A stretch of DNA of 64,000 nucleotides, from assembly GCA_017630405.1 (NCBI GenBank), contig JAGBVH010000024.1:31638-95637 (forward strand), read 5' to 3'. Positions 6,551-40,313 of the stretch are shown piece by piece; position 1 is the first letter of the stretch, and each line of letters opens with the position of its first letter. The stretch comes from Alphaproteobacteria bacterium. Its GTDB lineage: Bacteria; Pseudomonadota; Alphaproteobacteria; Rs-D84. Position numbers and translations under genes: made by a program. The notes beneath the pieces were generated by a model. The model ran no database searches. It worked only from the letters and a program-made list of their open reading frames with translations, and was not told the origin of the DNA.

Positions 6551-7075
6551 ATGCAAGAAAATAAACCTTTGTTAGTTGTTGGATTGGGCAATCCTGGAAC
6601 GGAATATCGGACCACGCGTCATAATGTTGGATTTATGGCGGTGGATGCGCTGGCCGGTGATGGGGTGGTGTGGAAGTCTGAAAAAAATGCGCTGGTGGCA
6701 CGTGGTGATATTGATGGCCACAAGGTGATTTTTGTAAAGCCACAGACATTTATGAATAACAGTGGTGTTGCGGTTCAGGCATTGATGACATTTTATAAGA
6801 TACCGTTGGAAAATCTGGTTGTAATTCATGATGATATGGATTTGCCGGTTGCGGATTGCCGCACTAAAATTGGTGGTGGCAGTGCTGGACACAATGGTAT
6901 TCGTTCCATCGATGCGCATGTCGGGCGTGATTATACGCGTATCAGAATTGGTATTGGACACCCACGTGATTTTGATTTGCCGATGAATCCGGCGGATTGG
7001 GTGCTGGGGCGATTTGGGCCCGTTCAATTGGATTTGATACGCGCCACAATTGGCAATATTAAATTATTTGATTAA
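6551..7075 (+). CDS. pth: Peptidyl-tRNA hydrolase
   Basis: LVVGLGNPGTEYRTTRHNVGFMAVDALA near the N-terminus. The ORF begins at 6542; ATG 6551 (MQENKPLLVVGLGNPG) matches the canonical Pth N-terminus. Confidence 0.9.
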   Translation: MQENKPLLVVGLGNPGTEYRTTRHNVGFMAVDALAGDGVVWKSEKNALVARGDIDGHKVIFVKPQTFMNNSGVAVQALMTFYKIPLENLVVIHDDMDLPVADCRTKIGGGSAGHNGIRSIDAHVGRDYTRIRIGIGHPRDFDLPMNPADWVLGRFGPVQLDLIRATIGNIKLFD

Positions 7076-10000
7076 GGGTTTTCCGATTCTTCTGTGTCAG
7101 ATATTACCGTGGCATTACCCGATATGCATGGGTCGGAAAACGTTACCTGATAGTTGTTTATGATGTTTTCGTATGCGGTGTCTTCGGCGCCACACTTTTT
7201 GAATACAGGATTAGGGTTAGGTTCGTTTGTCACCCGATAGTAATATGTATCGTCCTTGTTGGTTCTGTAAAACAAATACATGTTTTCATGTGTTGTGGCC
7301 AGGTATTTGGTCTTTGAAGTTGCTGTGTCTTGCTGGACAAGCAACCAATCGCCATCGCATTCAATTGTGGTTCCGTTAGGGAAGGCTTCTGTATCAGTTT
7401 CACCTGTCGGTTGAACTGTGTCGCCGATACATATCATGAATTGTGTGGTGGTGGCAATTCCAGCCGCAGCATATGGTATTGCTGAGCCTGCTGGACCACA
7501 TAATGGACCGTATTTATAATCTGTTAGTTGTGTGGGATAATTGCTCCACATAAACTGTCCCGAAGGTGTTATGCTTGTTACGCAGCAATTGCCGGATTGA
7601 TCTTTGCTACCATCGCAGCAGTTAGTTATATTGCTTGATATGTTTATGTGGCCGGATTCGCAGTATTGACCCGCGGAATCAAAACCATTGGATGGTTTGC
7701 AAGAGCAAATGCTTTGTTGGTAGCAGTTGCCTTGTTGGTTGCAGTTGACTTGTTGGGTGCAGTAATTGATAAAACCAACGCCACATGTTGTATCGCGACA
7801 GCTGTCTGGCATATCGGCAGTGCCAGTATTTTTTGCAAACCATGCCAACAATGTATCTGTATCGCCAGTGTGCGGTATTTTTATCATGTTATGTTCGTCT
7901 GATGCCAGAACTGTTTGTGGCGCATTTTCGCAGTTGCCCCAAATGCGTTCGGCAAAGCGACAGATATAGCATTCTTCGGTGTTGTCACTGCTGCACTCAC
8001 TTGCACATATGTTATATATGCAGTTTTTGCTTGGAATGTTTGTTAATTGGTCCCCGTTTTCTTTAAAGTTTATACAGTCTGTATTTTGCCCGTTGTGAAT
8101 AATATCGATCCAGCTTTTGTTGCCACCGTAAAGTTTGTTGTAATCGAATGAAAAATATTCTTTGTCCCCAATGGTTGTTTTTGCCAGCGGATATTCTTCG
8201 CGAATATTGGCCAGTGATGTCGTGCCGGCATCGCGGATGCATTGAACAACCTCGTTCCAGCAGGCGGTGCGATTGATAATGGATTTGCGGTTAATGGATG
8301 TGTCAATGTTTTCGCAAAGACCAAAGTTACCAGAAATTGACTTGCAAGCCTGAATGATGCACGAACGTCCAACCTCGGTACAGGTTTGCAGGATTGTGTC
8401 ATATGTTTTGTTTGTGGCGATGCCGGTCATACCTGTTGACCAGTCTGTGTCTGCGTCTGGTGCGCTTTCTAACAGGGCCGTACAGGCGTTGCGTACATCA
8501 GAACACATTTCATTTACTGTTTTATCCGCCAATACGCCAAAGGTGGACAGGGCGCGCGCATCAAAATCCTCGATGGATTCGGCGGTGTCTGCCAAACATT
8601 GTGTGGTCAGTGTTGTGCAGGATTGGCGCACTTCTTCCAATTTTTTATCCTGGGCCAGTTTGATTTGTGCCAGCGCATCATCAATAAAGTTTGCCCAAAC
8701 TGTATCTGCAATATCCTGACATTTTTCCATCGCGGGTTCCAAGAATTTCTTTTTAGTGTTCAGGTATGATACGAATTTTTCGTTCCCTGGAACCTTGGAC
8801 CATGCGGTTTCGTCACTTGGGCGTATAATTAATTTGCCCAAATCAACAAGGTTTACAGTTAAAAATGCTTCACCTGTTGACGGGTCGATATAACGGCCGG
8901 TTGTATCAAGGCACTTGGATAGGTTGTCGCCGCATACGGTTGTGTCGGTCAACATATCAATCATTTTTGATTTACAGGTTAGTATGTCGTCTGAATTGCG
9001 TTTCTGGTGGATGTCAAGGCGGGACATATCAAGCAGCGCGCTGCTTTCCAGAACCTGCTCACGTGCCTGATCTGTCTGGGTTTGATACGATTTTGCAACC
9101 GTATTACAATCCTGTTCAATTGCCATTTGGTATCCGCTTTCGGCAACGGCTAAATCTTCGGCCGAGCAAACCTCCATCGCCATTTCACGACATACGGGCA
9201 GGGCAGCGGAATAAAGGGCGGTGCCTGATTTAGTCGTGGTGGATGCGCCGGCCAGTGAGTCAATATTATCAAATGCTGCATCCATGTTCAGGGATAATGA
9301 TATTGCACTAAGATCCTGATTAAAGTTGCTGTCGCTGAAACTGGTATTAAGTTTTTTTGCGATACTGTCCAACATTTTCTTGGATTCAGATTGGTCTTTG
9401 GTATCAAATGCTGTTTCGCCCTCGGTCGCGGTGTTGATGGCGGCCGCATCTTCTTTATCAAGATTTACAGTCAGCAAGCGTTGGTTAAATTCCAGCAGTT
9501 TATCTTCGACCTTGGCCAATTGTTTTTTTGTAGAATCAAATTCGTTAACGCGAACAGAGCAGGCACAACGTTTTAGTTGTGCATCCTTGTTAGCGCAGAA
9601 TTCATCCATACAATCATAGTAAACAGTGCGACATTTGCTAAAGTCGCGGGACATAATTTGGTCGCGCAGGTTCGTGTCAGTTGTGTTTCGTGCGATATTT
9701 GCAGCACGCGAACGGGACGCTGTATTAGTCGCAGGTAAGCGGGTGGTGGCCGCTGTGCGGGCAACCGTTGGGGTGCGTGTCGCAGGCTTGGTGCTGCGTG
9801 GTTGAACAGTTGTTGCCGCAGGCTTTGCGGATGTGGCGCGGGGCATAACATTTGATGTGGTGCGTGCCGATACGGTCCGGTTTTCATTCAACGCAGTGCG
9901 GCCGGTATTTTTAACGGTTGTGTCACCGCGTGGGCCCGTTGTTGTGCCGCGTTCGCCCGAGTTTGTTGATTTGGATGTGCCGCTGGCGCGTGAATTGCTG

Positions 10001-10155
10001 GTCTTATTAGTGGTGTTTTTTCGTGCAGAAGATATATTTTGGGACGAGGTACGACGAACAGCGGCGCGCGCCGAGTCCGCACCATCATCAGCCACCGCCC
10101 CCTGAAACACAAGCGGTGCAAGCAATACAGCCAAAAGTAGTCTAATTCCCTTCAT
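7072..10155 (-). CDS. Large secreted protein: signal peptide, Thr/Ser/Arg-rich low-complexity (mucin-like) N-terminal region, coiled-coil middle, cysteine-rich C-terminal half
   Basis: 1027 aa. Signal peptide MKGIRLLLAVLLAPLVFQGAVA. About 170 aa of T/S/R/A/N-rich low complexity, then long helical segments. The C-terminal ~450 aa contains more than 40 Cys in CxxC/CC clusters. No recognisable enzymatic motif. Confidence 0.6.
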   Translation of the reverse strand: MKGIRLLLAVLLAPLVFQGAVADDGADSARAAVRRTSSQNISSARKNTTNKTSNSRASGTSKSTNSGERGTTTGPRGDTTVKNTGRTALNENRTVSARTTSNVMPRATSAKPAATTVQPRSTKPATRTPTVARTAATTRLPATNTASRSRAANIARNTTDTNLRDQIMSRDFSKCRTVYYDCMDEFCANKDAQLKRCACSVRVNEFDSTKKQLAKVEDKLLEFNQRLLTVNLDKEDAAAINTATEGETAFDTKDQSESKKMLDSIAKKLNTSFSDSNFNQDLSAISLSLNMDAAFDNIDSLAGASTTTKSGTALYSAALPVCREMAMEVCSAEDLAVAESGYQMAIEQDCNTVAKSYQTQTDQAREQVLESSALLDMSRLDIHQKRNSDDILTCKSKMIDMLTDTTVCGDNLSKCLDTTGRYIDPSTGEAFLTVNLVDLGKLIIRPSDETAWSKVPGNEKFVSYLNTKKKFLEPAMEKCQDIADTVWANFIDDALAQIKLAQDKKLEEVRQSCTTLTTQCLADTAESIEDFDARALSTFGVLADKTVNEMCSDVRNACTALLESAPDADTDWSTGMTGIATNKTYDTILQTCTEVGRSCIIQACKSISGNFGLCENIDTSINRKSIINRTACWNEVVQCIRDAGTTSLANIREEYPLAKTTIGDKEYFSFDYNKLYGGNKSWIDIIHNGQNTDCINFKENGDQLTNIPSKNCIYNICASECSSDNTEECYICRFAERIWGNCENAPQTVLASDEHNMIKIPHTGDTDTLLAWFAKNTGTADMPDSCRDTTCGVGFINYCTQQVNCNQQGNCYQQSICSCKPSNGFDSAGQYCESGHINISSNITNCCDGSKDQSGNCCVTSITPSGQFMWSNYPTQLTDYKYGPLCGPAGSAIPYAAAGIATTTQFMICIGDTVQPTGETDTEAFPNGTTIECDGDWLLVQQDTATSKTKYLATTHENMYLFYRTNKDDTYYYRVTNEPNPNPVFKKCGAEDTAYENIINNYQVTFSDPCISGNATVISDTEESENP

Positions 10156-10388: not shown

Positions 10389-11240
10389 ATGGCATTGCCA
10401 ACATTTACAATGAAACAGTTGATGGAAGCTGGTGTTCATTTTGGTCACCATACACGTCGCTGGAATCCTCTGATGACACCATATGTTTATGGCGTTAAGG
10501 ATAAAATTCACATTATTAACTTGAACAAAACTGCACCTTTGTTGCATCGTTCTTTGGTTGCATTGGAAGCTATTGCAGCCGCTGGTGGTAAAGTGTTGTT
10601 TGTTGCAACAAAACATCAGGCAAAAGATATCGTTAAAGATGCTGCTGAACGTTGCGGTCAGTACTATGTTAATAATCGTTGGTTGGGTGGTATGTTGACA
10701 AACTGGACTACAGTTTCTCAGTCTATCCGTCGTTTGAAAAAGATGGAAGCAGATATCGCCAATGCTGACAAATTGGGCTTGACCAAGAAAGAAGTCGGCG
10801 TTATGACCAAAGAAGTTGAAAAATTGCGTGGCATTTTCGGTGGTATTATGGAAATGCACGGCACACCTCAGGCAATGGTGGTTATCGATGTTCCACGTGA
10901 AATGAACGCTGTTCGTGAAGCGAAAAACTTGGATATCCCAACAATCGCAATTTGCGATACAAACGCAAACCCAGAAATTGTTGACTATCCAGTCCCAGGT
11001 AATGACGACGCAGCACGCGCAACACAGTTGTACTGTGACTTGTTCGTAGATGCGATTTTGTCTGGTATCGAAAAACGCTTGGGTGGCGCAGCGGGCAAAA
11101 AAGTTGAATCTGATATGAAAGCAGATGCAGCAGATGAATTGGAAGAAGAAGTTAAAGCAAAAGAAGCTAAAATCAAATCCAAAACATCAGAAGCACGTGC
11201 AGAACGCCGTGGCAAATTGGCCGAAAAAGCAGATAAATAA
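10389..11240 (+). CDS. rpsB: 30S ribosomal protein S2
   Basis: MALPTFTMKQLMEAGVHFGHHTRRWNP... Acidic Lys/Glu-rich C-terminal tail. Confidence 0.95.
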   Translation: MALPTFTMKQLMEAGVHFGHHTRRWNPLMTPYVYGVKDKIHIINLNKTAPLLHRSLVALEAIAAAGGKVLFVATKHQAKDIVKDAAERCGQYYVNNRWLGGMLTNWTTVSQSIRRLKKMEADIANADKLGLTKKEVGVMTKEVEKLRGIFGGIMEMHGTPQAMVVIDVPREMNAVREAKNLDIPTIAICDTNANPEIVDYPVPGNDDAARATQLYCDLFVDAILSGIEKRLGGAAGKKVESDMKADAADELEEEVKAKEAKIKSKTSEARAERRGKLAEKADK

Positions 11241-11311: not shown

Positions 11312-12181
11312 ATGGCAGAAATTACAGCAAAATTAATTCAAGAACTGCGCGAAAAAACCGCTGCGGGTATGATGGATTGTAAAAAAGCCCTGATGGAAAA
11401 CGATGGCGATATTCAGGCTGCCGCTGATTGGTTACGCCAGAAAGGTATTGTTAAAGCAGCATCCAAGGCTGGTCGTGTTGCCGCATCTGGTTTGGTCACA
11501 GTTGTAAAATGTGACGGTATGGGCTGTGTTGTTGAATTGAATGCAGAAACAGACTTTGTTGCGAAAAATGACAAGTTCCAGAAATTGGTTGCCGATGTTG
11601 CAGACAAAGCGATGGAATTCAAGGGTGACTTTGAAGCAACTATGAATGCAGTAAAAGATGATATCGCAGCAACAATCGCGACAATCGGTGAAAATATGAA
11701 TCTGCGCCGTATCGCAACTGTTAATGGTGATAAAATCTTTACATACATCCACAATGCTTTGGTCCCAGGTATGGGTCAGATTGGTGTTGCAGTTGCTATC
11801 AACGGAACAGATGAAAAAATCAATGAAATTGGTTCCAAGGTTGCAATGCACATCGCAGCTAATAAACCTGAATTTATGACAATTGCTGATGTTGATCCAG
11901 TTGCAGTTGAACGCGAAAAGAAAGTGTTCATTGAATCTGGCGCAACAGCGGGTAAACCTGAAAACATCGTTGAAAAGATGGTAGAAGGTCGTATTAAAAA
12001 ATACTATGGTGAAAGCGTTCTGGAAGAACAGGCATTCGTCATGGACCCAAGCAAGACAGTAAAAGAAGTTATCGCAGAAGTTGGTGGTAAATTGGCTGGC
12101 TTTGCATGCTTCGTTTTGGGTGAAGGTATCGAAAAACGCGAAGACAATTTGGCTGATGAAGTTGCCAAAATGTTGGCCTAG
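11312..12181 (+). CDS. tsf: Elongation factor Ts
   Basis: MAEITAKLIQELREKTAAGMMDCKKAL... and ETDFVAKNDKFQ. Immediately downstream of rpsB, as in the conserved operon. Confidence 0.95.
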   Translation: MAEITAKLIQELREKTAAGMMDCKKALMENDGDIQAAADWLRQKGIVKAASKAGRVAASGLVTVVKCDGMGCVVELNAETDFVAKNDKFQKLVADVADKAMEFKGDFEATMNAVKDDIAATIATIGENMNLRRIATVNGDKIFTYIHNALVPGMGQIGVAVAINGTDEKINEIGSKVAMHIAANKPEFMTIADVDPVAVEREKKVFIESGATAGKPENIVEKMVEGRIKKYYGESVLEEQAFVMDPSKTVKEVIAEVGGKLAGFACFVLGEGIEKREDNLADEVAKMLA

Positions 12182-12201
12182 GTTTTTTAGAAAAAATATA
12201 G

Positions 12202-12230
12202 AAAGTCCTGCCGTTTGGTGGGACTTTTTG
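12202..12230 (+). terminator. Rho-independent terminator after tsf
   Basis: AAAGTCC tgccgtttggtg GGACTTTTTG hairpin plus T-tract. Confidence 0.6.
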
Positions 12231-12260
12231 TTTGACAAAAATCCTTTTTGCGATAAGATG
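12231..12260 (+). promoter_or_regulatory. Sigma70-like promoter for the radical-SAM cassette
   Basis: TTGACA-N17-TAAGAT immediately upstream of ATG 12263. The very short leader may mean the true start is further downstream. Confidence 0.4.
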
Positions 12261-12262
12261 TC

Positions 12263-13330
12263 GTGGCTATGGAATATATTGACATTGCGGTTAATGCTTT
12301 TGCAGATGAGGTGTCGGACATCCTGTGTGATTTTCGCAATTACGAGGTCGAGGCTGTATTTTATTTGACCGAGCATTGTAATCTGGCGTGCCCTGGTTGC
12401 TATATGCAGGCATCCCCAAATAAGTCCAAGGACGTATTGCCGACTATGGATATAGAATTTTATTTGTATGAGTTAAAAAAATTACCAAATTTTGTTAATA
12501 CTGTCGTCTTTTCTGGGGGCGAGATTTTTACCACACCATTGGAGTATATAAAACGTAATGCCCAGCAGGTTTTGGACAATGGGTGTGCGTTGCAGCTTAA
12601 AACAAACGGTTCGTGGGCTAATAATCCAGCCCAGCGCAATCAAGTTTTGTCTATGTTGCGCCAATTGCGGCCATGGTATGGCAGGATGCAGTACGAGTAT
12701 TCGATTAACGATGTTTTTAATAATGTGCCGAATTGGTTAAACAAGGCCTTGGGGCGTTTATATTGGAATAGGCTTGTCAGGGTGCCGGCATTGGATATGG
12801 CAATTTCGGTCGATAATATTTTACATCCGGAAAAGTCTGCTGATTGGTTCTGTGATATTGTGAATGCGGTGACCGAGGACAAGGAATTGGCACGCAAAAT
12901 CAATCTTAAAAGTTTTAGTTTCTTTCAGGCAGGCAGCCATTTCCGCGATAAAGTGATTAATAACGAAAAATTAAAGATGACGCATTTTTCGGTGCACAGT
13001 CGTATCCCTGTATGTAAATATCGCGTTAATGGTCATCGCGTGGAATCTTATCTGGGGAATTATGTTAATGTTGCTAATATAGATATGTATGAAAAGTTAA
13101 GCAATATTGTATTGTGTCCAATCGGTAATGTGACCGGACGATTGGTTTACTGTTTTTACCCAGACGAAACGGTTGGATTGGATTGTCTGCATTTGGAATC
13201 GGTGGGGCGTGTACCATATATTGATGAAAATGGTGAATATAAAAGTATCAGCAGAATCACCAAGGATATACATGATAAACTGGTTGCGGATTATCGTGCT
13301 GAGTTGCTAAAGAGAACAAAGGTGAAATGA
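12263..13330 (+). CDS. Radical SAM domain protein, function unknown
   Basis: CNLACPGC (CX3CX2C) at 12377..12400, with a downstream SGGE glycine-rich SAM-binding motif. Six more Cys in the C-terminal third but no clean SPASM pattern. AT-rich codon usage relative to neighbours. Confidence 0.65.
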   Translation: MAMEYIDIAVNAFADEVSDILCDFRNYEVEAVFYLTEHCNLACPGCYMQASPNKSKDVLPTMDIEFYLYELKKLPNFVNTVVFSGGEIFTTPLEYIKRNAQQVLDNGCALQLKTNGSWANNPAQRNQVLSMLRQLRPWYGRMQYEYSINDVFNNVPNWLNKALGRLYWNRLVRVPALDMAISVDNILHPEKSADWFCDIVNAVTEDKELARKINLKSFSFFQAGSHFRDKVINNEKLKMTHFSVHSRIPVCKYRVNGHRVESYLGNYVNVANIDMYEKLSNIVLCPIGNVTGRLVYCFYPDETVGLDCLHLESVGRVPYIDENGEYKSISRITKDIHDKLVADYRAELLKRTKVK

Positions 13331-13938
13331 TGGCAAAATATTCGGTGACACAAGAAGAATATAATATTCTGTTGCGCGAGTACAAGCGTTTGGGGCTGAT
13401 GTTGGAAAATGTAGAGATTGTTAAGAAGCCAATCCCGCTTGAGCCGCATATGATTGATATGTTTGGTCAGTTGGATGCGGGTACAATGCAGCGCCTGTTT
13501 GGAAAAAATGCTGATAATATTTGGTACTATAATTTTGATGCTGGTAAGTGGTGTGCGAACGGGTTGCTGGAAAATGGTTTTTTTCATGCTCGCTATAACA
13601 CAACAAATGTAAAAGTGTTTAAGCGTGTGATCGAAGAGGAAAATAAGAATATCGAGGTTGCGGCCTGTGTTGTAATGCCGGTCGAAGGCGATGGTTCTGC
13701 GATTGAAACAGGGGCTATTGTAGAAAAGCCAAGGTTCTGTTTTGGCGGATTGGGGGCGGTTGCAACACTGGTGTGTCGTGATAAGGCAACCAAGCAGTTT
13801 ATGAAACCTTTTGATTGGATTTGGGTGGACTTGTATTCTTCGAAATACCAATGTATGCAGGCCGCGATGTCAAGATTTGCAGTCGAAGGGGCGCGTAATT
13901 ATTATTTTCGTCAGGCACTGCTTGGAAAGCGCAGATAA
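13327..13938 (+). CDS. Hypothetical protein, translationally coupled to the radical SAM gene (ATGA overlap)
   Basis: 203-aa ORF whose start overlaps the rSAM stop by 4 nt. No recognisable motifs and no P-loop. Confidence 0.45.
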   Translation: MMAKYSVTQEEYNILLREYKRLGLMLENVEIVKKPIPLEPHMIDMFGQLDAGTMQRLFGKNADNIWYYNFDAGKWCANGLLENGFFHARYNTTNVKVFKRVIEEENKNIEVAACVVMPVEGDGSAIETGAIVEKPRFCFGGLGAVATLVCRDKATKQFMKPFDWIWVDLYSSKYQCMQAAMSRFAVEGARNYYFRQALLGKRR

Positions 13939-14002
13939 TAATTTGTATGTTTCCTTGCGTGTGGCGTAAAAGAGTGATATTATCTGTCTTGATATAAAGG
14001 AA

Positions 14003-15223
14003 ATGGCGATGCAAAATGAGTTGTTAAAAGAATTAGAAGCGCGTGGTTTTATTAATCAGACTTCAAATATGGATGGCTTAAATGCGGCATTGAACGCCGG
14101 TAAAATCACAGCGTATTTGGGCTCTGACCCTACGGCGGACAGTTTACATGTTGGACACTTGGTGCCGGTTATGATGATGCGCTGGCTGCAGAAGTATGGT
14201 CATCGTCCGATTGCGTTGGTTGGTGGGGCAACAGGGCGCATTGGCGATCCGTCGGGTCGTGATTCTGGTCGTCCTATGATGACTGAAGAAGTTCTGGCAA
14301 AAAATGTTGCTGGATTAAAGAAGTCTTTTTCCAAGTTTTTGCGGTTTGGCGAAAATGATAATGATGCGCTGATGGTGGATAATTATGATTGGATGAAGCA
14401 GTACAGCCATTTGGATTTTTTGCGCGATTTTGGAACTGATTTTACTGTGCCAAGAATGTTGTCTATGGATTCTGTGAAACGCCGTTTGGATAATGGTATG
14501 ACTTTCTTGGAATTTAATTACATGACATTTCAGGCAGTTGACTTTTTGACATTGTATCGTGAACATAATTGCGTTCTGCAGACTTGTGGTGCTGACCAAT
14601 GGGGAAATGCGATTATGGGTATCGAACTGGTGCGTAAAAAACTGGGTAAAGAAGTTTTTGTTTTGTCGACTTCGTTGATTACAGATGCCAATGGTAATAA
14701 AATTGGTAAGTCTGCTGGTAATGCGGTTTGGGTAAATGAAGATAAAACTTCGCCATATGAATATTATCAGTATTTCCGTAATATATCGGATGATTTGGTT
14801 GAAAAGTTCCTGAAGATATTTACAGAAATTCCATTGGATGAGATTGCGCGTCTGTCTGCCTTGCGGGGCGCGGAATTAAATGAAGCCAAAAAAGTTTTGG
14901 CGTTTGCTGCAACCGAAATTGCACATGGACGTGAAGCTGCGGAAAAGGCTGCTGAAGCGGCGGCGGCGTTGTTCGGTGGCGGTGCAGATATGAGTAATGT
15001 TCCATCCAAGGAAATTGAAATGGTTGATGAAATGCCAATTTTGGATTTCTTGGTTATGACAGGTTTGTTCCCGTCTAAGTCCGAAGCGCGCCGTATGGTC
15101 GAGCAGGGCGGTGTTCAAATTGATGGTGTGAAAATCACAGATATCAAATATATTGTATCGCCGGCGGATGAATTGATGGTTCAAAAAGGGAAAAAGACTT
15201 TCTTGAAAGTTATCAAGAAATAA
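14003..15223 (+). CDS. tyrS: Tyrosyl-tRNA synthetase
   Basis: HIGH motif (DPTADSLHVGHLVPV), KMSKS-like KIGKSAGNAVW, and a C-terminal S4-like domain. ATG 14009 is an alternative start. Confidence 0.9.
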   Translation: MAMQNELLKELEARGFINQTSNMDGLNAALNAGKITAYLGSDPTADSLHVGHLVPVMMMRWLQKYGHRPIALVGGATGRIGDPSGRDSGRPMMTEEVLAKNVAGLKKSFSKFLRFGENDNDALMVDNYDWMKQYSHLDFLRDFGTDFTVPRMLSMDSVKRRLDNGMTFLEFNYMTFQAVDFLTLYREHNCVLQTCGADQWGNAIMGIELVRKKLGKEVFVLSTSLITDANGNKIGKSAGNAVWVNEDKTSPYEYYQYFRNISDDLVEKFLKIFTEIPLDEIARLSALRGAELNEAKKVLAFAATEIAHGREAAEKAAEAAAALFGGGADMSNVPSKEIEMVDEMPILDFLVMTGLFPSKSEARRMVEQGGVQIDGVKITDIKYIVSPADELMVQKGKKTFLKVIKK

Positions 15224-15250
15224 AAAACGGGGGAAACCCCGTTTTTTATT
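15222..15250. terminator. Bidirectional rho-independent terminator between tyrS (+) and the 15246..15764 (-) gene
   Basis: AAAAAACGGGGG aaa CCCCGTTTTTTATTT. Confidence 0.7.
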
Positions 15251-34399: not shown

Positions 34400-34478
34400 C
34401 TAGTGAATTTCGTCTTGCCTTGATAAAACGAATTGTGCCATAATATAATCACAAATAGGATTGGAAGAAAATAAAAAA

Positions 34479-37400
34479 ATGATGAAAAAGTTAATTTCCT
34501 TGATTTGCTGCTTGTTGCCAATGGGTGCGGTGGCTGGTGTTTCGTATATTTCGCCAAGTGAAACTGGTGGTGCGGTTTCGACTGAACAGGCTGATTGGCC
34601 TGCGGGTTCGAACAATACCGTTGTGGTACAGGAGGCCAGTGGAATTAATGCGCCTGGCGGTTTGTCGTTTCGTGAAATGTATGCGGGGCAGGCGACTGAC
34701 AGTGGCAGTGCGTTGGCTACAGAAGGCGTATTGTATGTGAACCAGTTGTCTGGCGAGGGACCTTTTACGGTTTCTTCTGGTGGTGCTGTATCGCTGAACG
34801 CATTGTTGAGTGTTTTAAATAATAATGAGCTTGCTTTTATTGGTGCTGATAATGGTGCGTATGATTTTACCGTTGGAAATATGGATGTTGCACAGTCGGG
34901 GGCGGTTAATGTGGCGGCAGGTTCTTCTTTGACAGTGAAAAATGCTGATGATTTTGCTGTCTATGGGACTGTTACAAATTCAGGAAATGTCGAGGTTGTT
35001 GCGAATTCCGTTGTTGCCGGTAAATTAGAAGCCGCAGATGGCGATATGGGACTTAGCGCGGCAAATGGTGTGTTTGTTGCTGGTGTTGGTACTGACGCTG
35101 ATGCAAGTGTTACGATTTCGGCAAGTGGCGAAAGTCAGCAAAATATATCTGGTACTGATATTGAGGGCGGAATCATTTCATATGGTACCGTTCAGAATAA
35201 TGGTACGGGCAGCGTAAATCTTAATTCGGCATCTGGTATATATGTTCTTGATGGTGATGCGGATGATGATACAGGGAACCTTGAAAACAATAATGTAGAT
35301 GGTACTTTGACTGTGGCGGGTGCTGATGGTACTGGGGCTGCGGGCGCTTTGATTGTTGATGGAACTATTAACAATTCTGGAAATATGAACGTGAGTGCCG
35401 ATTCGTTGTTGGTCAAAGGCGGTGATAGTGCGACCGGTTCTATTCAAAATACTGGTGATTTAGTTGTCGCTGTGACAAATGAAGCCAATGTTGGTTATGG
35501 TGTTAATTTGTCTGGTATGTCTGCTGATAAAAAGTTTGATTTTACTGCAGGTAGTTTGGCGTTTGGTCAGGATGCGAGCGCAGATATGATTCAGGGGATG
35601 TTTTCAAATGACTTGAATTCATATAATTTGTCTGTTGGCGGTGCGCTGGATTTAAGTCAATCAGATGTTGATATTGTTAACAACTCGGGAAATATGTCTG
35701 TAGGTGCTGGTAATGTCAGTGTTAATAATGTTTCAAATGCGGGACAAGAATTGAAGGTTGTTGCATCTGGTGAGGCTGGCGGTAATGTTGAAGTTGAAGG
35801 ACAAGTTGTAGGTTCGGCTGGTTCTGTGACTAATGTTACGGCAGAAAATGAGTTGAGTGTGGCTGATGCGGTTTCCAATCAAGGAACGATGACATTAAGC
35901 GGTACTACAGTTAAATTAACTTCTGTTTCTAATAGTGGTGCGGATTCTGATTTGACTGTTTCTTCTTCAACTGAAGGTGGGGCTGTTCTGGTTAGTGGTG
36001 AAGTTACAAATGCCGATGGTAATATGTTGGTTCAGGCCGAAGATATTACATTTGGCGCGATGGTGACAAATAATAGTGGTACTATGACAGTAAAGGGTTC
36101 GGATAGTGATAATGGTGCTGTTGCATTCGAGTCTATTGATGTTGCGGGGGGGACAGTTAATATTGATGCACTTGGTGGTGCGGTTTCGTTTGGTGGTAAT
36201 GCGCCATCGCCGGTAGCAGAAGGGGCACAGGCTGATTCTCAGGTTGCGATTAATGTTTCTGGTGGTGTGTTGAATTTTGGAACAAATGTTCGTGATGTTC
36301 AGTCCGCAGAAAATGTAAATATTGATGGCGGATTGTATGCTCGTGAAAATCTGATGACAGAAGCGGGCAGTGTGAATGTTCAATCAACGATGGCTGGTGG
36401 TGCGTCTGCATTTACTTTGGATGCTGGGTCGAATGATGTTGTTTTGGGCAAGGTTGTTGCTGATGGCTCGATTTCCGGCGGTGATATTATAATTGATGAT
36501 GCAACGGTAAAGCGCGGGGTGACTATCTCCGCGGATGGTTTGCATGCGATGGGGGATGTGACTGTTGCGAATTCTGGCAGTATGTTGTCTTTGACAGCGA
36601 ATTCGCTGGATATTGATGGATTGTTGACTGTTGGTGAAGGCAATTCGTTAAATCTTACTGCAGCGCAGGTTTATACCGGTTCGGTTGAATCGCATGGTAA
36701 AATTATGGCAGCAACATCCTTGATTACTGCTGACAATGGCAATGTGTTGTTTGATGGTAATTTATATATGGGTGTGACCGATAGTTATGCTGCTGCTGGT
36801 TTGTTTGCAAATGGTAATACTTTAACCATAACAACTACTGGGACTGATGGTTATGATATCAGTTTTGGTGGTGCACAGATTGCCAATGGTAATACTTTGA
36901 CAGTCAGCGCAAGCGGTGATGTTTCATTTGGTACAGAAATGAATAATGCTGGTGTTGTGACAATGAACGCTGATAATGCTTCGTTTGCGGCTGTCACGAA
37001 TTCAGGAACAACTACAGTGATTGTGACCGAAGATATTACAGCAACTGGCACAATTGATAATGACAAGAATTTGATTATGACAGCGGCTGATTTTAATTTG
37101 GCCAATGTTGATAATAGCGATACTTTGAATATCAATTCATTGGCAGGAACTGTGACGATGGCGGATGTGGATAACACAAGTTCTATGGTTGTTGCTGGTG
37201 CCAAGGCGATTGTAGCTGGCGATATTGAAAATAATGCTGGTGTTATGAATCTTAATGCCACAGAAAGCATCAACGGACAAAGTTTGGCGATTTCTGGTAC
37301 TGGTGCTAAGGCGACATTGAATACGGCAAAGGCTGAGTTTGCAAATGCTGTTAGTGTTGCTGGCGATATGGTCCAGGGCGCAACAAGTGGCGCGTTGAAT

Positions 37401-39815
37401 AATTTGGCAGCAACCTTTAAGGCCGGCTCGTTGGATATCACAAATGGTGGCGATTTGAAGTTTGTTGCGGGTGGTGCAGAATATAATATTGCCCAGAATG
37501 TTAATGTTGCTGGTGATATTATTATGAGCGGTGACGCATTGACGGTTGTTAATGCCGGTGGTATTCTGACAGCAGCAGGCCTTGAAAATAATAATGTTTT
37601 GACCATTGATGCAACTGGCGGCATGAGTTTGGGCAGTGTTGTTAATAATTTTGGTACTTTGACACTGGATTCAAATGATAATTGGACTGCTTTGTCGGAT
37701 TTAACTGTTAATGCGGGCGCGGTGGCTTTGTATGGGGCTGGTATCCGTGGCGCAGAGGCAATCGATACAGATTTTGCATTGACACAAGGTACATCTGGTG
37801 TGCTGGCAAATGGTGTTAATGTTCGTGCCGAGGACTTTGTTATAGAGACTAATAACTTGGTTGTAGGTGAAGTTAATCAGAAATCTGGTTCAATGATAGT
37901 CAAGGCCACGAATGTTGATGTCGGTGGCAGTATTATGGCCCAGGATTTGACATTTGCGGTACCAAATCAGACCAATTGGATGAGTGTAAATGTCGGTGGT
38001 GATGTTTCTGGTGGAGTTGGATTCTTGGGTGTTGGCACAATGGGTGTTGGTGGTAACTATATCTTTGATTCTGGCAGTCAATTAAGCGCTGTTGTTTTAC
38101 CATACGCAGAGGGTGATGGAACGGGTGTTAACAACTATTGGTCAACAATCAGCCTTAACGAAGATGATACTTTGGGACAGATTACCAATGCCGAAGGCGG
38201 TAGTGCCTTGATTAGTATAGAGGGCACATTCAAGGGTGGTTCGGATTATACTGGTGCATCCGTTGTAAATGGTGCCGCTTTGGGTGAATCCCAGATTGGT
38301 ATTACATTAAAGGATGCGGTAAATCAGGGTACTGCAATTTGGTTGTTACATGCCAATGGCGGGGTTGAAAACTTTAGCGATTTGGAATTGTTGCGTAATT
38401 TGGATGTGCGCTATTGCAACGCAGATGGTTCTATTTGCTATGATTATTTGACTTCTTTGGATGATAAGAATTCTTCAGATGAGGATTTGCCAGCATATGT
38501 TTCTGTGCGTGATAATGATTTGGATGGGACTACGGACAGTTTGTATGTTGTGTTTGATCCAAGATTTGGCGGCCCAGTATTGGTTGAAAATATGAAGTTG
38601 CAGCCAATTGTTGCGCGTCAGCCAGATTCTACGGATGGCGAATATGTTTCCGCAGGTGCTTTGGATGCTTTGATTGCGGGGCAGTTGCAGGACAAGAAGT
38701 TCTATAACAAAACACCAATCGAAGTGATTCCATTGGCGTTTGAGGGTTCGGTAATGTCAAATGCAGCAAACGAACTGTATAATCGTATGGAATATTATGT
38801 TGAAACAGCGGATGGTGCACCTTTGGCGAACTTTAGCCATTTGTTCCAAGTGTATGAGGCTGAACAGGTCGCTGGTGTAATGTCCTTGAATGAACATACC
38901 GCGTTCCGTTCGTTTGAAGATCGTATGATGGATGAGTTTATCTGGCATCGCAATCGTAATCTGCGCAAGGCATGGTTGGATGTGGACTATGGTATGTCGT
39001 ATCAGAATATAAGCACCGGTACACATGCTGATGGTCATCGCTTTAGTGTTTCGGGTGGTTTTGACTGGCAGGATTCAGATACTGTTATTCTGGGATTGAC
39101 AGGGCGTGTATCACGTACGTCATCCAAGGCTTCTGATTCTGTAGATTTGAGTTATAGCACAAATGTTTTGGCGGGCCACAGCAGTGTTGAAGTGACCGAT
39201 ACGAATGTTGGATTGGGTGGTTATATGATGAAGACATTGGGTGATAAGACACGTCTTTATGGAAATGCGTTCTTGGATCTGCATATGTTTGATATCAATC
39301 GTGAACAGAACTTTGTGACCCCAATCGATGGTTCTGGGTCTGCGTTCAGTTTGATTTCCGAATGGGGATTGATGCATGATATCTTGAATCAGTATGTTGT
39401 TGGTAATATCTATGCGCGTGCTGGTTATAACTTTGGTTTTGATATAACCGAAGAAGTGACAGGTGGCGATTATATGCAACTTGAATCTGATGGCTATTTC
39501 GTTTTGACACCAGGTTATACTTTGATGGCGCAGAAGCGTATCTATCCATCAGCATGGTTCCAGATTCGTCCATATATGGCTTTGGGCGTTGAATATGATG
39601 TTATTGGTGGTCCAGACAAGGCAAGATATAAATTCGATGCCGCCAAGCATTATACAAACTATGATGTAGCTATTGATCCATTGTGGGCAAATATCGGTGG
39701 TGGTGTGGAATTCTTGTCAGCACATGGATTCCAGTTGGGTGTTGATTACCGTTATCAATACAACTCGGATATTCAGTTGCACAATATCAAGGTTTCTGGT
39801 TCATACAGATTCTGA
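34479..39815 (+). CDS. Type Va autotransporter adhesin with a very large passenger domain
   Basis: Signal peptide MMKKLISLICCLLPMGAVAG. About 1450 aa of Gly/Ser/Asn/Thr/Ala/Val-rich beta-helix-like passenger sequence. A C-terminal ~280-aa beta-barrel translocator ends ...NIKVSGSYRF. The track ORF starts at TTG 34461; ATG 34479 was preferred. Confidence 0.85.
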   Translation: MMKKLISLICCLLPMGAVAGVSYISPSETGGAVSTEQADWPAGSNNTVVVQEASGINAPGGLSFREMYAGQATDSGSALATEGVLYVNQLSGEGPFTVSSGGAVSLNALLSVLNNNELAFIGADNGAYDFTVGNMDVAQSGAVNVAAGSSLTVKNADDFAVYGTVTNSGNVEVVANSVVAGKLEAADGDMGLSAANGVFVAGVGTDADASVTISASGESQQNISGTDIEGGIISYGTVQNNGTGSVNLNSASGIYVLDGDADDDTGNLENNNVDGTLTVAGADGTGAAGALIVDGTINNSGNMNVSADSLLVKGGDSATGSIQNTGDLVVAVTNEANVGYGVNLSGMSADKKFDFTAGSLAFGQDASADMIQGMFSNDLNSYNLSVGGALDLSQSDVDIVNNSGNMSVGAGNVSVNNVSNAGQELKVVASGEAGGNVEVEGQVVGSAGSVTNVTAENELSVADAVSNQGTMTLSGTTVKLTSVSNSGADSDLTVSSSTEGGAVLVSGEVTNADGNMLVQAEDITFGAMVTNNSGTMTVKGSDSDNGAVAFESIDVAGGTVNIDALGGAVSFGGNAPSPVAEGAQADSQVAINVSGGVLNFGTNVRDVQSAENVNIDGGLYARENLMTEAGSVNVQSTMAGGASAFTLDAGSNDVVLGKVVADGSISGGDIIIDDATVKRGVTISADGLHAMGDVTVANSGSMLSLTANSLDIDGLLTVGEGNSLNLTAAQVYTGSVESHGKIMAATSLITADNGNVLFDGNLYMGVTDSYAAAGLFANGNTLTITTTGTDGYDISFGGAQIANGNTLTVSASGDVSFGTEMNNAGVVTMNADNASFAAVTNSGTTTVIVTEDITATGTIDNDKNLIMTAADFNLANVDNSDTLNINSLAGTVTMADVDNTSSMVVAGAKAIVAGDIENNAGVMNLNATESINGQSLAISGTGAKATLNTAKAEFANAVSVAGDMVQGATSGALNNLAATFKAGSLDITNGGDLKFVAGGAEYNIAQNVNVAGDIIMSGDALTVVNAGGILTAAGLENNNVLTIDATGGMSLGSVVNNFGTLTLDSNDNWTALSDLTVNAGAVALYGAGIRGAEAIDTDFALTQGTSGVLANGVNVRAEDFVIETNNLVVGEVNQKSGSMIVKATNVDVGGSIMAQDLTFAVPNQTNWMSVNVGGDVSGGVGFLGVGTMGVGGNYIFDSGSQLSAVVLPYAEGDGTGVNNYWSTISLNEDDTLGQITNAEGGSALISIEGTFKGGSDYTGASVVNGAALGESQIGITLKDAVNQGTAIWLLHANGGVENFSDLELLRNLDVRYCNADGSICYDYLTSLDDKNSSDEDLPAYVSVRDNDLDGTTDSLYVVFDPRFGGPVLVENMKLQPIVARQPDSTDGEYVSAGALDALIAGQLQDKKFYNKTPIEVIPLAFEGSVMSNAANELYNRMEYYVETADGAPLANFSHLFQVYEAEQVAGVMSLNEHTAFRSFEDRMMDEFIWHRNRNLRKAWLDVDYGMSYQNISTGTHADGHRFSVSGGFDWQDSDTVILGLTGRVSRTSSKASDSVDLSYSTNVLAGHSSVEVTDTNVGLGGYMMKTLGDKTRLYGNAFLDLHMFDINREQNFVTPIDGSGSAFSLISEWGLMHDILNQYVVGNIYARAGYNFGFDITEEVTGGDYMQLESDGYFVLTPGYTLMAQKRIYPSAWFQIRPYMALGVEYDVIGGPDKARYKFDAAKHYTNYDVAIDPLWANIGGGVEFLSAHGFQLGVDYRYQYNSDIQLHNIKVSGSYRF

Positions 39816-39850: not shown

Positions 39851-39926
39851 GGTAAATTTTTCCTAGACAAATTGTATTCTTCATATGATATAATTTTTTT
39901 AGAAAACGAAAATAAAGGAGATGCAA

Positions 39927-40313
39927 ATGAAAAAGATTTCTTTGGTCGCATTGATGGGCGTGTTGTCTGTTGGCGCAGCATTGGCTGAGTTTCAGGCCCC
40001 AGCACCGATGGTTGCAACACATACAAATACCAAAGGCGGATTTGTCAGTGGTGATGAAGTTATCGTGACAGTAAAACAAGTTAATGAAATGCGTGATGAT
40101 GTGCCGGTTGTTGTCAAGGGACATATTGTTCAGCGTATGGGTGATGAAAAATATTTGTTTGAAGATTCTACTGGTTCTATTACTGTTGAAATCGATGATG
40201 AAGACTGGCGCGGTCAGACGATTACATCAACAGATACTGTAAAATTGACAGGTGAAGTTGATCGTGGTATTTTCAAAACAGAAATCGAAGTAGATTATGT
40301 TGAAAAAATCTAG
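39927..40313 (+). CDS. YgiW/YdeI (BOF, bacterial OB-fold) periplasmic stress protein
   Basis: Signal peptide. VKGHIVQRMGDEKYLFEDSTGSITVEIDDEDW...VKLTGEVDRGIFKTEIEVDYVEKI matches the YgiW OB-fold family. AAGGAG Shine-Dalgarno sits 6 nt upstream of ATG 39927. Confidence 0.7.
   Translation: MKKISLVALMGVLSVGAALAEFQAPAPMVATHTNTKGGFVSGDEVIVTVKQVNEMRDDVPVVVKGHIVQRMGDEKYLFEDSTGSITVEIDDEDWRGQTITSTDTVKLTGEVDRGIFKTEIEVDYVEKI

What the first reader, a model, noticed from the sequence alone, without database searches (positions are those of the whole stretch)
12231..13938. Radical SAM two-gene cassette inserted into the conserved rpsB-tsf neighbourhood
Between tsf and tyrS, where the rpsB-tsf neighbourhood in many bacteria continues into pyrH-frr, sits a promoter (TTGACA-N17-TAAGAT). 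It is followed by a 355-aa radical SAM protein (CNLACPGC at 12377..12400, plus SGGE), which is translationally coupled by a 4-nt overlap to a 203-aa protein with no recognisable motifs. The cassette has AT-richer codon usage than the flanking genes and is bracketed by the tsf terminator and the tyrS promoter region, consistent with horizontal acquisition. The rSAM protein lacks a clean SPASM/twitch pattern and does not resemble QueE, activases or typical viperin signatures. Together with its partner it may be an uncharacterised modification, biosynthetic or defence module.
Basis: partly seen in the sequence, partly recalled or inferred. Interest (0 to 1): 0.7.

Follow-up and report, generated by a model that had tools for sequence, protein, structure and literature searches.

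The report
Orphan radical SAM gene in hotspot
An uncharacterised iron-sulfur (radical SAM) enzyme gene and an unrelated orphan gene sit in a highly variable slot between two housekeeping genes of a tiny-genome gut bacterium. They are real, expressed-looking accessory genes, but not a fixed two-gene system, and their function is unknown.

Summary
The two ORFs, the CNLACPGC/GGE motifs, the ATGA overlap, the tsf terminator and the promoters are all present. The claimed AT-rich codon bias is not.

The organism is a Candidatus Enterousia (order Rs-D84, genomes of about 0.75-1.0 Mb). The radical SAM (rSAM) protein belongs to a small unnamed family of about 27 clusters at 50% identity among 1.84 billion proteins. 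It has one CX3CX2C cluster, no auxiliary-cluster cysteines and a family-specific C-terminal half. Its closest solved relative is the peptide epimerase EpeE/YydG, but it fails that family's defining features.

In a sample anchored on tyrS, 48 loci have tsf upstream of tyrS. In 17 the gap is under 250 nt (empty). The other 31 gaps are longer; many hold unrelated orphan genes, and only 2 hold the rSAM. The partner also occurs without the rSAM, and the rSAM mostly occurs without the partner.

So this is accessory cargo of an insertion hotspot, under purifying selection (dN/dS 0.09-0.33) and exchanged between species. It is not a coupled cassette. Substrate and role remain inferred. Moderate interest.

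The parts
11312..12181 (+). tsf (EF-Ts), the conserved left flank of the variable slot
   Evidence: Pfam EF_TS on the identical gene in L001. It is 86-94% identical across related loci.
12198..12240 (+). Intrinsic terminator of tsf: a 15-bp hairpin at 12198-12231 followed by a U-run
   Evidence: strand folding gives dG -19.6 kcal/mol and z -4.95; 0 of 200 shuffles fold as well.
12232..12259 (+). Promoter of the rSAM gene: TTGACA, 16 nt, TAAGAT. Only 9 nt separate the -10 box from the ATG, so the mRNA would be nearly leaderless.
   Evidence: It is the best promoter-like site in the scan, 10 of 12 matches. L009 has the same layout (TTGACA-16-TAGTAT-9 nt-ATG), and TTGACA promoters lie upstream of the rSAM in L006, L007, L016, L025, L027, L030 and L032.
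12269..13330 (+). Radical SAM enzyme, 353 aa from ATG 12269 (an alternative GTG lies at 12263). It is a member of a small unnamed family specific to Ca. Enterousia and Rs-D84.
   Evidence: 60 homologs at 30-99% identity, all from uncultured gut Alphaproteobacteria. The full family is about 27 clusters with E<=1e-30 among 1.84e9 representatives. The AF2 model has pLDDT 90.6. dN/dS is 0.09-0.33.
12377..12400 (+). CX3CX2C motif (CNLACPGC), the ligands of the radical SAM [4Fe-4S] cluster
   Evidence: C37, C41 and C44 are invariant in 34 of 34 family members. They are the only invariant cysteines.
12515..12523 (+). GGE motif (SAM binding)
   Evidence: G83, G84 and E85 are invariant in the family alignment. 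The sequence was read directly.
12770..13327 (+). Family-specific C-terminal half of the rSAM (approximately residues 168-353). It holds the invariant SVD, HP, PD-T and GR motifs and has no auxiliary-cluster cysteines.
   Evidence: Invariant residues are S180, V181, D182, P298, T301 and G313; H186, P187, D299 and R314 are nearly invariant. A profile of this half finds nothing in the PDB (best E 0.19). No Pfam or NCBIfam hit covers it.
13327..13938 (+). Orphan 203-aa 'partner' protein (type D). The first ATG overlaps the rSAM stop (ATGA); homologs start at 13330.
13955..13983 (+). tyrS promoter (TTGCGT, 17 nt, TATTAT), the right boundary of the slot
   Evidence: The -35 and -10 boxes are visibly conserved at the same distance from the tyrS start in most of the 19 aligned loci; L032 is less clear.
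14003..15223 (+). tyrS (tyrosyl-tRNA synthetase), the conserved right flank
   Evidence: Pfam tRNA-synt_1b, SYY_C-terminal and S4 on the near-identical (98%) gene in L001. It is 75-92% identical across loci.

Best explanation
The region holds two independent accessory genes lodged in a hypervariable slot between tsf and tyrS of a reduced-genome gut alphaproteobacterium (Candidatus Enterousia, order Rs-D84).

Gene 1 is a functional radical SAM enzyme with a single [4Fe-4S] cluster. It has its own promoter. It belongs to a small, fast-evolving, lineage-restricted family that is exchanged between species by recombination through the conserved flanks.

Inferred mechanism: the CX3CX2C cluster binds SAM and cleaves it reductively. 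The resulting 5'-deoxyadenosyl radical abstracts a hydrogen atom from a substrate. That substrate would be held by the family-specific, cysteine-free C-terminal domain, which carries invariant or nearly invariant polar and basic residues (K111, N113, D182, H186, R291, D299, R314, K325).

The enzyme has no auxiliary cluster, no peptide-recognition domain, no constant neighbour, and no protease or exporter nearby. I therefore favour a stand-alone enzyme acting on a diffusible, probably anionic (nucleotide- or sugar-nucleotide-like) small molecule, in the manner of viperin, BlsE or DesII. Its likely role is in inter-organism conflict or host interaction rather than housekeeping.

Gene 2, the 203-aa partner, is a separate orphan cargo gene. 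It is not an obligate subunit or substrate.

Shown: gene reality, family limits, motifs, fold class, slot variability, lack of coupling, purifying selection and allele exchange. Inferred: substrate class and biological role.
For: Gene reality and motifs.

Selection: dN/dS is 0.09-0.33 for the rSAM, against 0.02-0.07 for tyrS and the M23 peptidase gene.

Family size and restriction.

No curated family is reached:
- Pfam Radical_SAM scores 26.9 bits (cut-off 29.5).
- The best NCBIfam hits score 28-32 bits against cut-offs of 131-300.
- PADLOC pVip scores 25.9 bits.

Cysteines: only three are invariant, so there is no auxiliary cluster.

Slot variability: of 48 tyrS-anchored loci with tsf upstream, 17 are empty, 18 have gaps of 250-700 nt, 13 have larger gaps, and the rSAM is present in 2.

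Companions of the rSAM fall into at least 5 unrelated families, or are absent.

The partner occurs without an adjacent rSAM (L060; also no rSAM within the 180 nt visible upstream in L063).

Allele exchange: a 99%-identical tract in a background of about 80%.

Own promoter. tyrS has a separate conserved promoter.

Relatives carry a canonical NrdG, so this gene is not the ribonucleotide reductase activase.

Reduced genomes of 0.75-1.0 Mb are described in PMC12306168.
Against: - About 17 of 26 rSAM loci do have some small orphan ORF directly adjacent, and some are translationally coupled.
- No known defence gene or mobile-element gene was found in any version of the slot.
- No nucleotide-binding signature could be tested.
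- The role in conflict rests only on variability, evolutionary rate and allele exchange.
- Genomes lacking the rSAM at this slot may carry it elsewhere. In 6 of 26 loci it is not next to tyrS.
Confidence: 0.4

Rival explanations
1. Peptide or protein maturase. The rSAM abstracts a C-alpha or side-chain hydrogen from a ribosomally made protein, as EpeE/YydG or the auxiliary-cluster-free proteusin epimerases do. The adjacent small orphan proteins are its substrates. These include the 203-aa partner here, the 'MxKYK' 111-155-aa family (type C), the ~85-aa Cys-rich acidic protein and the 98-aa membrane protein found in other genomes.
For: - The next tier of unnamed rSAM relatives also hits the YydG model weakly.
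- There are ATGA-type overlaps with the partner and with the 98-aa protein in L004, L026 and L028.
- Peptide epimerases without an auxiliary cluster exist (PoyD, OspD; PMC13012085).
- The partner and the type C family share an N-terminal MxKYK[VI] motif.
Against: - The YydG NCBIfam model scores 28.7 bits against a cut-off of 300.
- There are no auxiliary-cluster cysteines, and the candidate H-donor cysteine (C295) is present in only 22 of 34 members.
- No leader-recognition domain, protease or exporter is present in any locus.
- The neighbouring proteins belong to at least 5 unrelated families, and several loci (L010, L019/L021, L025) have none.
- The partner and the type C proteins occur together without an rSAM.
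- Type C proteins are common in slots that never hold an rSAM.
Confidence: 0.25
2. Function linked to tyrosyl-tRNA synthetase or tRNA(Tyr). The rSAM stays next to tyrS because it modifies tRNA or the synthetase, or because it makes a tyrosine-derived or synthetase-targeting antimetabolite against which the adjacent (sometimes duplicated) tyrS gives resistance.
For: - The rSAM lies immediately upstream of tyrS and on the same strand in 20 of 26 distinct rSAM loci. This holds down to 31% rSAM identity and despite rearranged upstream flanks.
- A second, divergent tyrS appears as slot cargo. It is in tandem with the normal one in L120 and is the only tyrS seen on the L060 contig, which also carries the partner homolog.
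- A recombination patch lies inside tyrS between the window and L001.
Against: - tyrS has its own promoter, conserved across the aligned loci. It is present whether or not an rSAM lies upstream.
- tyrS loci overwhelmingly lack the rSAM (2 of 48).
- No Rfam element is found in the region.
- The adjacency is explained more simply: both genes border the same insertion slot.
Confidence: 0.08
3. Divergent copy of a housekeeping rSAM, such as an anaerobic ribonucleotide reductase or glycyl-radical activase, QueE, MoaA or a heme/cofactor maturase, that only looks novel because the lineage evolves fast.
For: The best NCBIfam hit by E-value is NrdG2 (6.4e-8). The genomes are reduced and anaerobic. The gene is retained under purifying selection.
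Against: - All curated models score far below their cut-offs (32 bits against 131 for NrdG2).
- A canonical nrdD-nrdG pair exists in a related locus (L064).
- The gene is absent from most related tsf-tyrS slots.
- It is 31-67% identical where its core-gene neighbours are 75-99% identical.
Confidence: 0.05

Closest known systems
EpeE / YydG radical SAM peptide epimerase (Bacillus subtilis; PDB 8AI1-8AI6; NCBIfam TIGR04078)
   Different: Identity is only 11-14%. The TIGR04078 score is 28.7 bits against a cut-off of 300. There are no cysteines for the auxiliary [4Fe-4S] cluster of the T-SPASM/twitch domain (feature from PMC13012085). There is no EpeX-like precursor, protease or ABC exporter nearby. 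The host is an alphaproteobacterium, whereas epipeptides are restricted to Bacillota.
Single-cluster small-molecule rSAM enzymes of the same structural neighbourhood: viperin/pVip (CTP dehydratase), BlsE (cytosylglucuronate decarboxylase), DesII
   Different: NF038283 viperin_w_prok scores 28.8 bits against a cut-off of 180, and PADLOC pVip scores 25.9 bits. The C-terminal half is unrelated in sequence to any solved structure. No kinase or nucleotide-metabolism neighbours are present. No activity is known.
Variable-gene hotspots (accessory or defence islands) flanked by conserved core genes
   Same: The flanks (tsf and tyrS) are conserved. Slot states range from empty to more than 3 kb. The cargo consists of many unrelated, fast-evolving orphan families. 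There is evidence of allele exchange by recombination.
   Different: No recognisable defence, toxin-antitoxin, integrase or transposase gene was seen in any version of the slot. No tRNA or direct repeats lie at the borders. The host genome is under 1 Mb.

Membership tests
Radical SAM superfamily | CX3CX2C motif providing three cysteine ligands to a [4Fe-4S] cluster | tested here: met
   CNLACPGC lies at 12377-12400. C37, C41 and C44 are invariant in 34 of 34 homologs.
Radical SAM superfamily | SAM-binding GGE motif and a partial (beta/alpha)6 TIM-barrel core | tested here: met
Radical SAM superfamily | Pfam PF04055 gathering score (29.5 bits) | tested here: not met
   The score is 26.9 bits, E 6.1e-6, over residues 35-119 only. 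The family is divergent; membership rests on motifs and fold.
EpeE/YydG peptide epimerases | NCBIfam TIGR04078 equivalog cut-off (300 bits) | tested here: not met
   28.7 bits.
EpeE/YydG peptide epimerases | Auxiliary [4Fe-4S] cluster in an extended twitch (T-SPASM) domain | tested here: not met
   No conserved cysteine exists outside the CX3CX2C triad. The next most frequent are C295 (22 of 34) and C306 (15 of 34). The feature is taken from PMC13012085.
EpeE/YydG peptide epimerases | Gene cluster with a short precursor peptide, a protease and an ABC exporter (epeXEPAB) | tested here: not met
   None of these is present in the window or in 26 related loci.
SPASM/twitch rSAM maturases | C-terminal cysteine-rich motif binding one or two auxiliary clusters | tested here: not met
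   All SPASM-family NCBIfam models score 14-29 bits against cut-offs of 300-850.
Prokaryotic viperins (pVip) | Full-length match to the viperin models (NF038283 cut-off 180 bits; PADLOC pVip) | tested here: not met
   The scores are 28.8 bits and 25.9 bits, over the N-terminal ~90 residues only.
Prokaryotic viperins (pVip) | Conversion of NTPs to 3'-deoxy-3',4'-didehydro-NTP chain terminators | not testable with these tools
   Requires an enzyme assay.
Glycyl-radical / anaerobic RNR activases (NrdG) | TIGR02495 cut-off (131 bits); pairing with nrdD | tested here: not met
   The score is 32.2 bits. The related locus L064 carries an nrdD-type gene fragment followed by a 233-aa rSAM scoring 66 bits on PF04055 (above the gathering cut-off), read here as canonical NrdG.
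Obligate two-gene cassette (rSAM + 203-aa partner) | The two genes co-occur across relatives | tested here: not met
   The partner is found with the rSAM in only 3-4 close lineages. About 22 of 26 rSAM loci lack it. The partner lies next to tyrS without an rSAM in L060/L061; on L063 no rSAM is visible in the 180 nt upstream of the type C gene, where the contig ends.
Core-gene-flanked variable hotspot | Conserved flanks with empty and differently filled states among relatives | tested here: met
   Among 48 tyrS-anchored loci with tsf upstream, the gap is under 250 nt in 17, 250-700 in 18, 700-1500 in 8 and over 1500 in 5. At least 7 unrelated cargo families occur.
Defence island | Presence of known defence genes in the slot | tested here: not met
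   PADLOC finds nothing significant on the rSAM, the partner or 10 other cargo proteins.

The most novel reading that the evidence does not exclude
The tsf|tyrS slot of these sub-megabase gut symbionts is a compact conflict locus, and the rSAM is a new kind of single-gene effector. It would be a single-cluster radical SAM enzyme with a novel substrate domain that makes a modified nucleotide or antimetabolite. The product might target tyrosyl-tRNA synthetase, which would explain the alternative tyrS copies that also appear as slot cargo. The orphan partner and the 'MxKYK' proteins would be further unrecognised conflict genes with new folds.
Probability: 0.12. Interest if true: 0.75.

Novelty: new variant of a known kind. 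Interest (0 to 1): 0.4.

Why it matters
The rSAM defines a small, well-delimited and confidently modelled subfamily. It combines an EpeE-like core with a cysteine-free, sequence-unique C-terminal domain. That makes it a tractable target for finding new radical chemistry.

The broader point is that bacteria with genomes under 1 Mb, thought to be partner-dependent, still keep a recombination-driven variable slot next to essential translation genes. The slot is filled with orphan genes, at least one of which has no recognisable fold. This offers a handle on what such organisms vary in order to survive.

On its own, however, an unannotated rSAM plus an orphan is common in metagenomic genomes. No function is established here.

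Tried and rejected
- Curated libraries. Pfam, NCBIfam, PADLOC and PHROGs on both proteins and on about 20 neighbouring orphan proteins gave no family assignment.
- C-terminal half of the rSAM against PDB sequences: nothing.
- Homology between the partner (type D) and the 'MxKYK' type C family. hhalign aligns only the first 8-24 residues, with probability of 5% or less, so this was rejected.
- An RNA element or T-box upstream of tyrS: no Rfam match.
- Mobile-element signatures. The only tRNA is at 41 kb, and no flanking direct repeats were found.
- Phage or plasmid origin. No full-length relatives were found.
- Compositional evidence for horizontal transfer: none.
- The AFDB Foldseek library was unavailable.
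- An early inference was overturned. From rSAM-anchored loci I first concluded that the rSAM is a conserved syntenic gene of the whole lineage. The tyrS-anchored sample showed this was a sampling bias.
- The Terasakiella/Rhodospirillales and methanogen hits of the genome scan are unrelated rSAM enzymes that share only the cluster region.
Full report
**1. What is in the sequence**

The region reads as follows:
- rpsB at 10389-11240 and tsf at 11312-12181.
- A strong hairpin at 12198-12231 followed by a U-run. It has dG -19.6 kcal/mol and z -4.95 against shuffles.
- A promoter-like site, TTGACA (12232-37), 16 nt, TAAGAT (12254-59).
- An ORF from GTG 12263 or ATG 12269 to 13330.
- A second ORF at 13327-13938. 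Its ATG overlaps the first ORF's TGA (ATGA).
- tyrS starting at 14003 or 14009.

CNLACPGC lies at 12377-12400 and GGE at 12515-12523.

On composition, the rSAM has GC 0.408 and GC3 0.434, and the partner has GC 0.437 and GC3 0.448. The 45 long ORFs of the window have mean GC 0.435 (sd 0.026) and mean GC3 0.409 (sd 0.047). A codon-usage index is also within 1 sd. There is no AT-rich signature.

**2. The organism**

Near-identical contigs, and homologs at 30-73% identity, all come from uncultured gut Alphaproteobacteria. Those in GenBank are labelled Candidatus Enterousia. The literature places this genus in order Rs-D84. It describes genomes of 0.75-1.0 Mb with very limited metabolism and a presumed partner-dependent lifestyle (PMC12306168).

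**3. The rSAM protein**

No curated model reaches its threshold:
- Pfam Radical_SAM scores 26.9 bits against a cut-off of 29.5, covering residues 35-119 only.
- The best NCBIfam hits (NrdG2, viperin, YydG, AlbA and others) score 24-32 bits against cut-offs of 131-850.
- PADLOC pVip scores 25.9 bits.

A word-seeded search of 5.8 billion proteins found 60 full-length relatives. An exhaustive HMMER profile search of 1.84 billion representatives found only 27 clusters at E<=1e-30. Beyond these it found generic matches to the cluster region only. The next tier is also unnamed.

In an alignment of 34 members, the invariant residues include C37, C41, C44, GGE 83-85, KTN 111-113, W116, SVD 180-182, P298, T301 and G313. 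Nearly invariant residues include H186, P187, R291, D299, R314 and K325. The three cluster cysteines are the only invariant cysteines; the next are C295 (22 of 34) and C306 (15 of 34). There is therefore no SPASM, twitch or other auxiliary cluster.

AlphaFold2 with this alignment gives a confident model (pLDDT 90.6, pTM 0.87).
- Foldseek also puts EpeE first, at E 5e-10 and TM about 0.5 over nearly the full length. MoaA is next at 1.5e-6.
- A sequence profile against the PDB agrees: EpeE at E 3.4e-8 over residues 24-157.
- The C-terminal half alone finds nothing.

**4. The partner**

**5. Neighbourhoods anchored on the rSAM**

There are 26 distinct loci carrying a family member. In 20 of them the rSAM is followed directly by tyrS on the same strand. 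This holds even at 31-33% rSAM identity. The gene upstream varies: tsf, a BOF-domain gene, rplI and others.

What accompanies the rSAM also varies:
- The 203-213-aa partner lies downstream only in the window's closest relatives.
- An ~85-aa Cys-rich acidic protein lies upstream in 7 loci.
- A 98-aa membrane protein overlaps the rSAM start in 4 loci.
- A 'MxKYK' protein of 127-152 aa (type C) lies upstream or downstream in 2 loci.
- A 299-aa protein accompanies it in 1 locus.
- A distant paralogous rSAM accompanies it in 1 locus.
- Several loci have nothing.

These companions are unrelated to one another.

**6. Neighbourhoods anchored on tyrS (the control)**

Loci chosen through the rSAM cannot reveal genomes that lack it. 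I therefore fetched 80 metagenomic loci through tyrS.
- Forty-eight have tsf upstream on the same strand.
- The tsf-tyrS gap is under 250 nt in 17, 250-700 nt in 18, 700-1500 nt in 8 and over 1500 nt in 5.
- The rSAM family occurs in 2 of these 48.
- The commonest cargo is the type C family (17 members recovered by clustering).
- Other cargo includes a 184-355-aa family, the 299-aa family, a 162-192-aa family and, in L120, a second divergent tyrS.

On a tyrS tree, slots with the rSAM, with type C, and empty are interleaved.

The partner homolog P0062 (56% identical) lies in the order tsf, 93-aa ORF, type C, partner, tyrS, with no rSAM. P0063 lies in the order type C, partner, tyrS.

The ancestral order is therefore rpsB-tsf-tyrS. 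The intergenic slot is a hotspot, and the rSAM and the partner are two of many independent cargo genes. It refutes the idea of a coupled cassette.

**7. Evolutionary behaviour**

Against the window, the rSAM is 31-67% identical where tyrS is 75-92%, tsf 86-94%, rpsB 90-99% and the M23 peptidase 70-91% identical. In the nearest species (L009), other non-core genes are comparable: Fic 63%, a secreted 1027-aa protein 70% and a 172-aa protein 69%. The partner is faster still, at 41%.

Pairwise NG86 dN/dS is 0.09-0.33 for the rSAM and 0.02-0.07 for tyrS and the M23 gene. The rSAM is therefore functional but less constrained.

Between L019 and L021 the rSAM tract is 99% identical in a background of about 80% nucleotide identity. 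This indicates recent allele exchange through the conserved flanks.

No tRNA, direct repeats, integrase or transposase mark the slot. No phage or plasmid carries a full-length relative.

**8. Transcription**

The tyrS promoter is recognisable at the same distance from the tyrS start in most of the 19 aligned loci, whatever lies upstream (L032 is less clear). The adjacency of the rSAM to tyrS therefore does not imply co-regulation. No Rfam element is present.

The rSAM promoter recurs in L009 with the same geometry, including only 9 nt between the -10 box and the ATG. This suggests a nearly leaderless mRNA. TTGACA-type promoters precede the rSAM in many other loci.

**9. Interpretation**

These points are solid:
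- Both genes are real.
- The rSAM is a divergent member of the radical SAM superfamily with a single cluster. It belongs to an unnamed, narrowly distributed family.
- The partner is an orphan.
- Both are accessory cargo of a variable slot and are not obligately linked.

The following is inferred. The chemistry is the canonical reductive cleavage of SAM followed by hydrogen abstraction. I favour a diffusible, probably anionic small-molecule substrate and a role in conflict or host interaction. The reasons are the absence of an auxiliary cluster, a recognition domain, a constant neighbour, a protease or an exporter. The stand-alone promoter, the patchy distribution, the fast evolution and the allele exchange point the same way.

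The main rival is a peptide or protein maturase acting on neighbouring small proteins. It is kept alive by the consistent EpeE/YydG top hits and by the frequent presence of some adjacent small ORF. A link to tyrosyl-tRNA synthetase is possible but weakly supported. A housekeeping identity is unlikely.

**10. Membership**

The protein meets the structural definition of the radical SAM superfamily. It fails the defining features of EpeE/YydG, SPASM/twitch maturases, pVip, NrdG-type activases and QueE. Details are in the membership table.

**11. Verdict**

This is a genuine but unassigned accessory rSAM plus an orphan, best filed as a new variant within a known superfamily. It sits in an interesting hotspot of a reduced genome. 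Interest is moderate, at 0.4. The most novel reading not excluded is a new single-gene conflict effector, possibly linked to the synthetase. I give that about 12% probability.

Noticed in passing
L120:2149-3360 and L120:3451-4662; L060:2053-3264: A second, divergent tyrosyl-tRNA synthetase appears as cargo of the same slot. It is 75% identical between L060 and L120 and only 47% identical to the window's tyrS. In L120 it sits in tandem with the normal tyrS. In L060 it is the only tyrS on the contig, even though tsf there is 90% identical to the window's. Two TyrRS genes would be unusual in a genome under 1 Mb.
   Followed up: partly
L060:947-1357, L063:181-627, L006:5467-5874 and 7188-7571, L007:5471-5929, L073, L075, L078, L079, L081, L089, L091, L097, L122, L123, L125, L126, L128, L138: A fast-evolving family of 111-155-aa proteins is the commonest occupant of the tsf|tyrS slot. 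Members start with MxKYK[VI] and carry AYSY and P(S/T)xS..NL motifs. They have no hit in Pfam, PHROGs or PADLOC. The family is absent from the window.
   Followed up: partly
window 14800-15250: The window and the otherwise ~99%-identical contig L001 differ by 8-13% in a ~450-nt patch at the 3' end of tyrS (the S4-domain region). This looks like a short recombination tract.
   Followed up: no
L019:4877-6077 versus L021: The rSAM tract is 99% identical between two MAGs from different studies whose flanking genes are about 80% identical. This indicates recent inter-species exchange of the rSAM allele.
   Followed up: partly
window 13955-13983 and orthologous positions in L005, L017, L018, L020, L022, L024, L025, L029, L063: In many relatives the spacer of the conserved tyrS promoter holds a perfect palindrome, GCACGC-GTTT-GCGTGC, which could be an operator. 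The window's version is degenerate.
   Followed up: no
window 12254-12271; L009:4982-5003: Only 9 nt separate the -10 box of the rSAM promoter from the ATG in both the window and L009. This predicts a nearly leaderless mRNA with no Shine-Dalgarno sequence.
   Followed up: no
L015:5655-6842: A 395-aa distant paralog lies directly downstream of the family member in one genome, giving a tandem pair of divergent rSAM genes. It is 20% identical over 338 aa and has a CNENCSRC motif.
   Followed up: no
L005:5671-5931, L017:4656-4928, L018:4617-4877, L020:4620-4874, L022, L024, L029: An ~85-aa protein lies between a BOF-domain gene and the rSAM in 7 loci. It has a conserved Cys-rich N-terminus (CDMC...CTFSGNC), a variable acidic middle and a conserved C-terminus (NPFQRGNGCM). 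It resembles a precursor peptide in layout. In the window it is absent, and the BOF gene at 39921-40313 is followed by an unrelated ORF.
   Followed up: partly
L074:2640-2996, L091:2150-2482, L104:2678-3007, L107, L108, L112: Small orphan ORFs of 108-118 aa, from two families, are also inserted between rpsB and tsf in some relatives. This is a second variable slot in the same neighbourhood.
   Followed up: no
window 7072-10155 (-) and 34461-39815 (+): The window encodes a 1027-aa Cys-rich protein with an N-terminal hydrophobic, signal-like segment (70% identical in L009; no Pfam hit on record for its 1008-aa ortholog in L001) and a 1784-aa ORF. These are large, fast-evolving proteins in a genome under 1 Mb and may be surface or host-interaction factors.
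   Followed up: no
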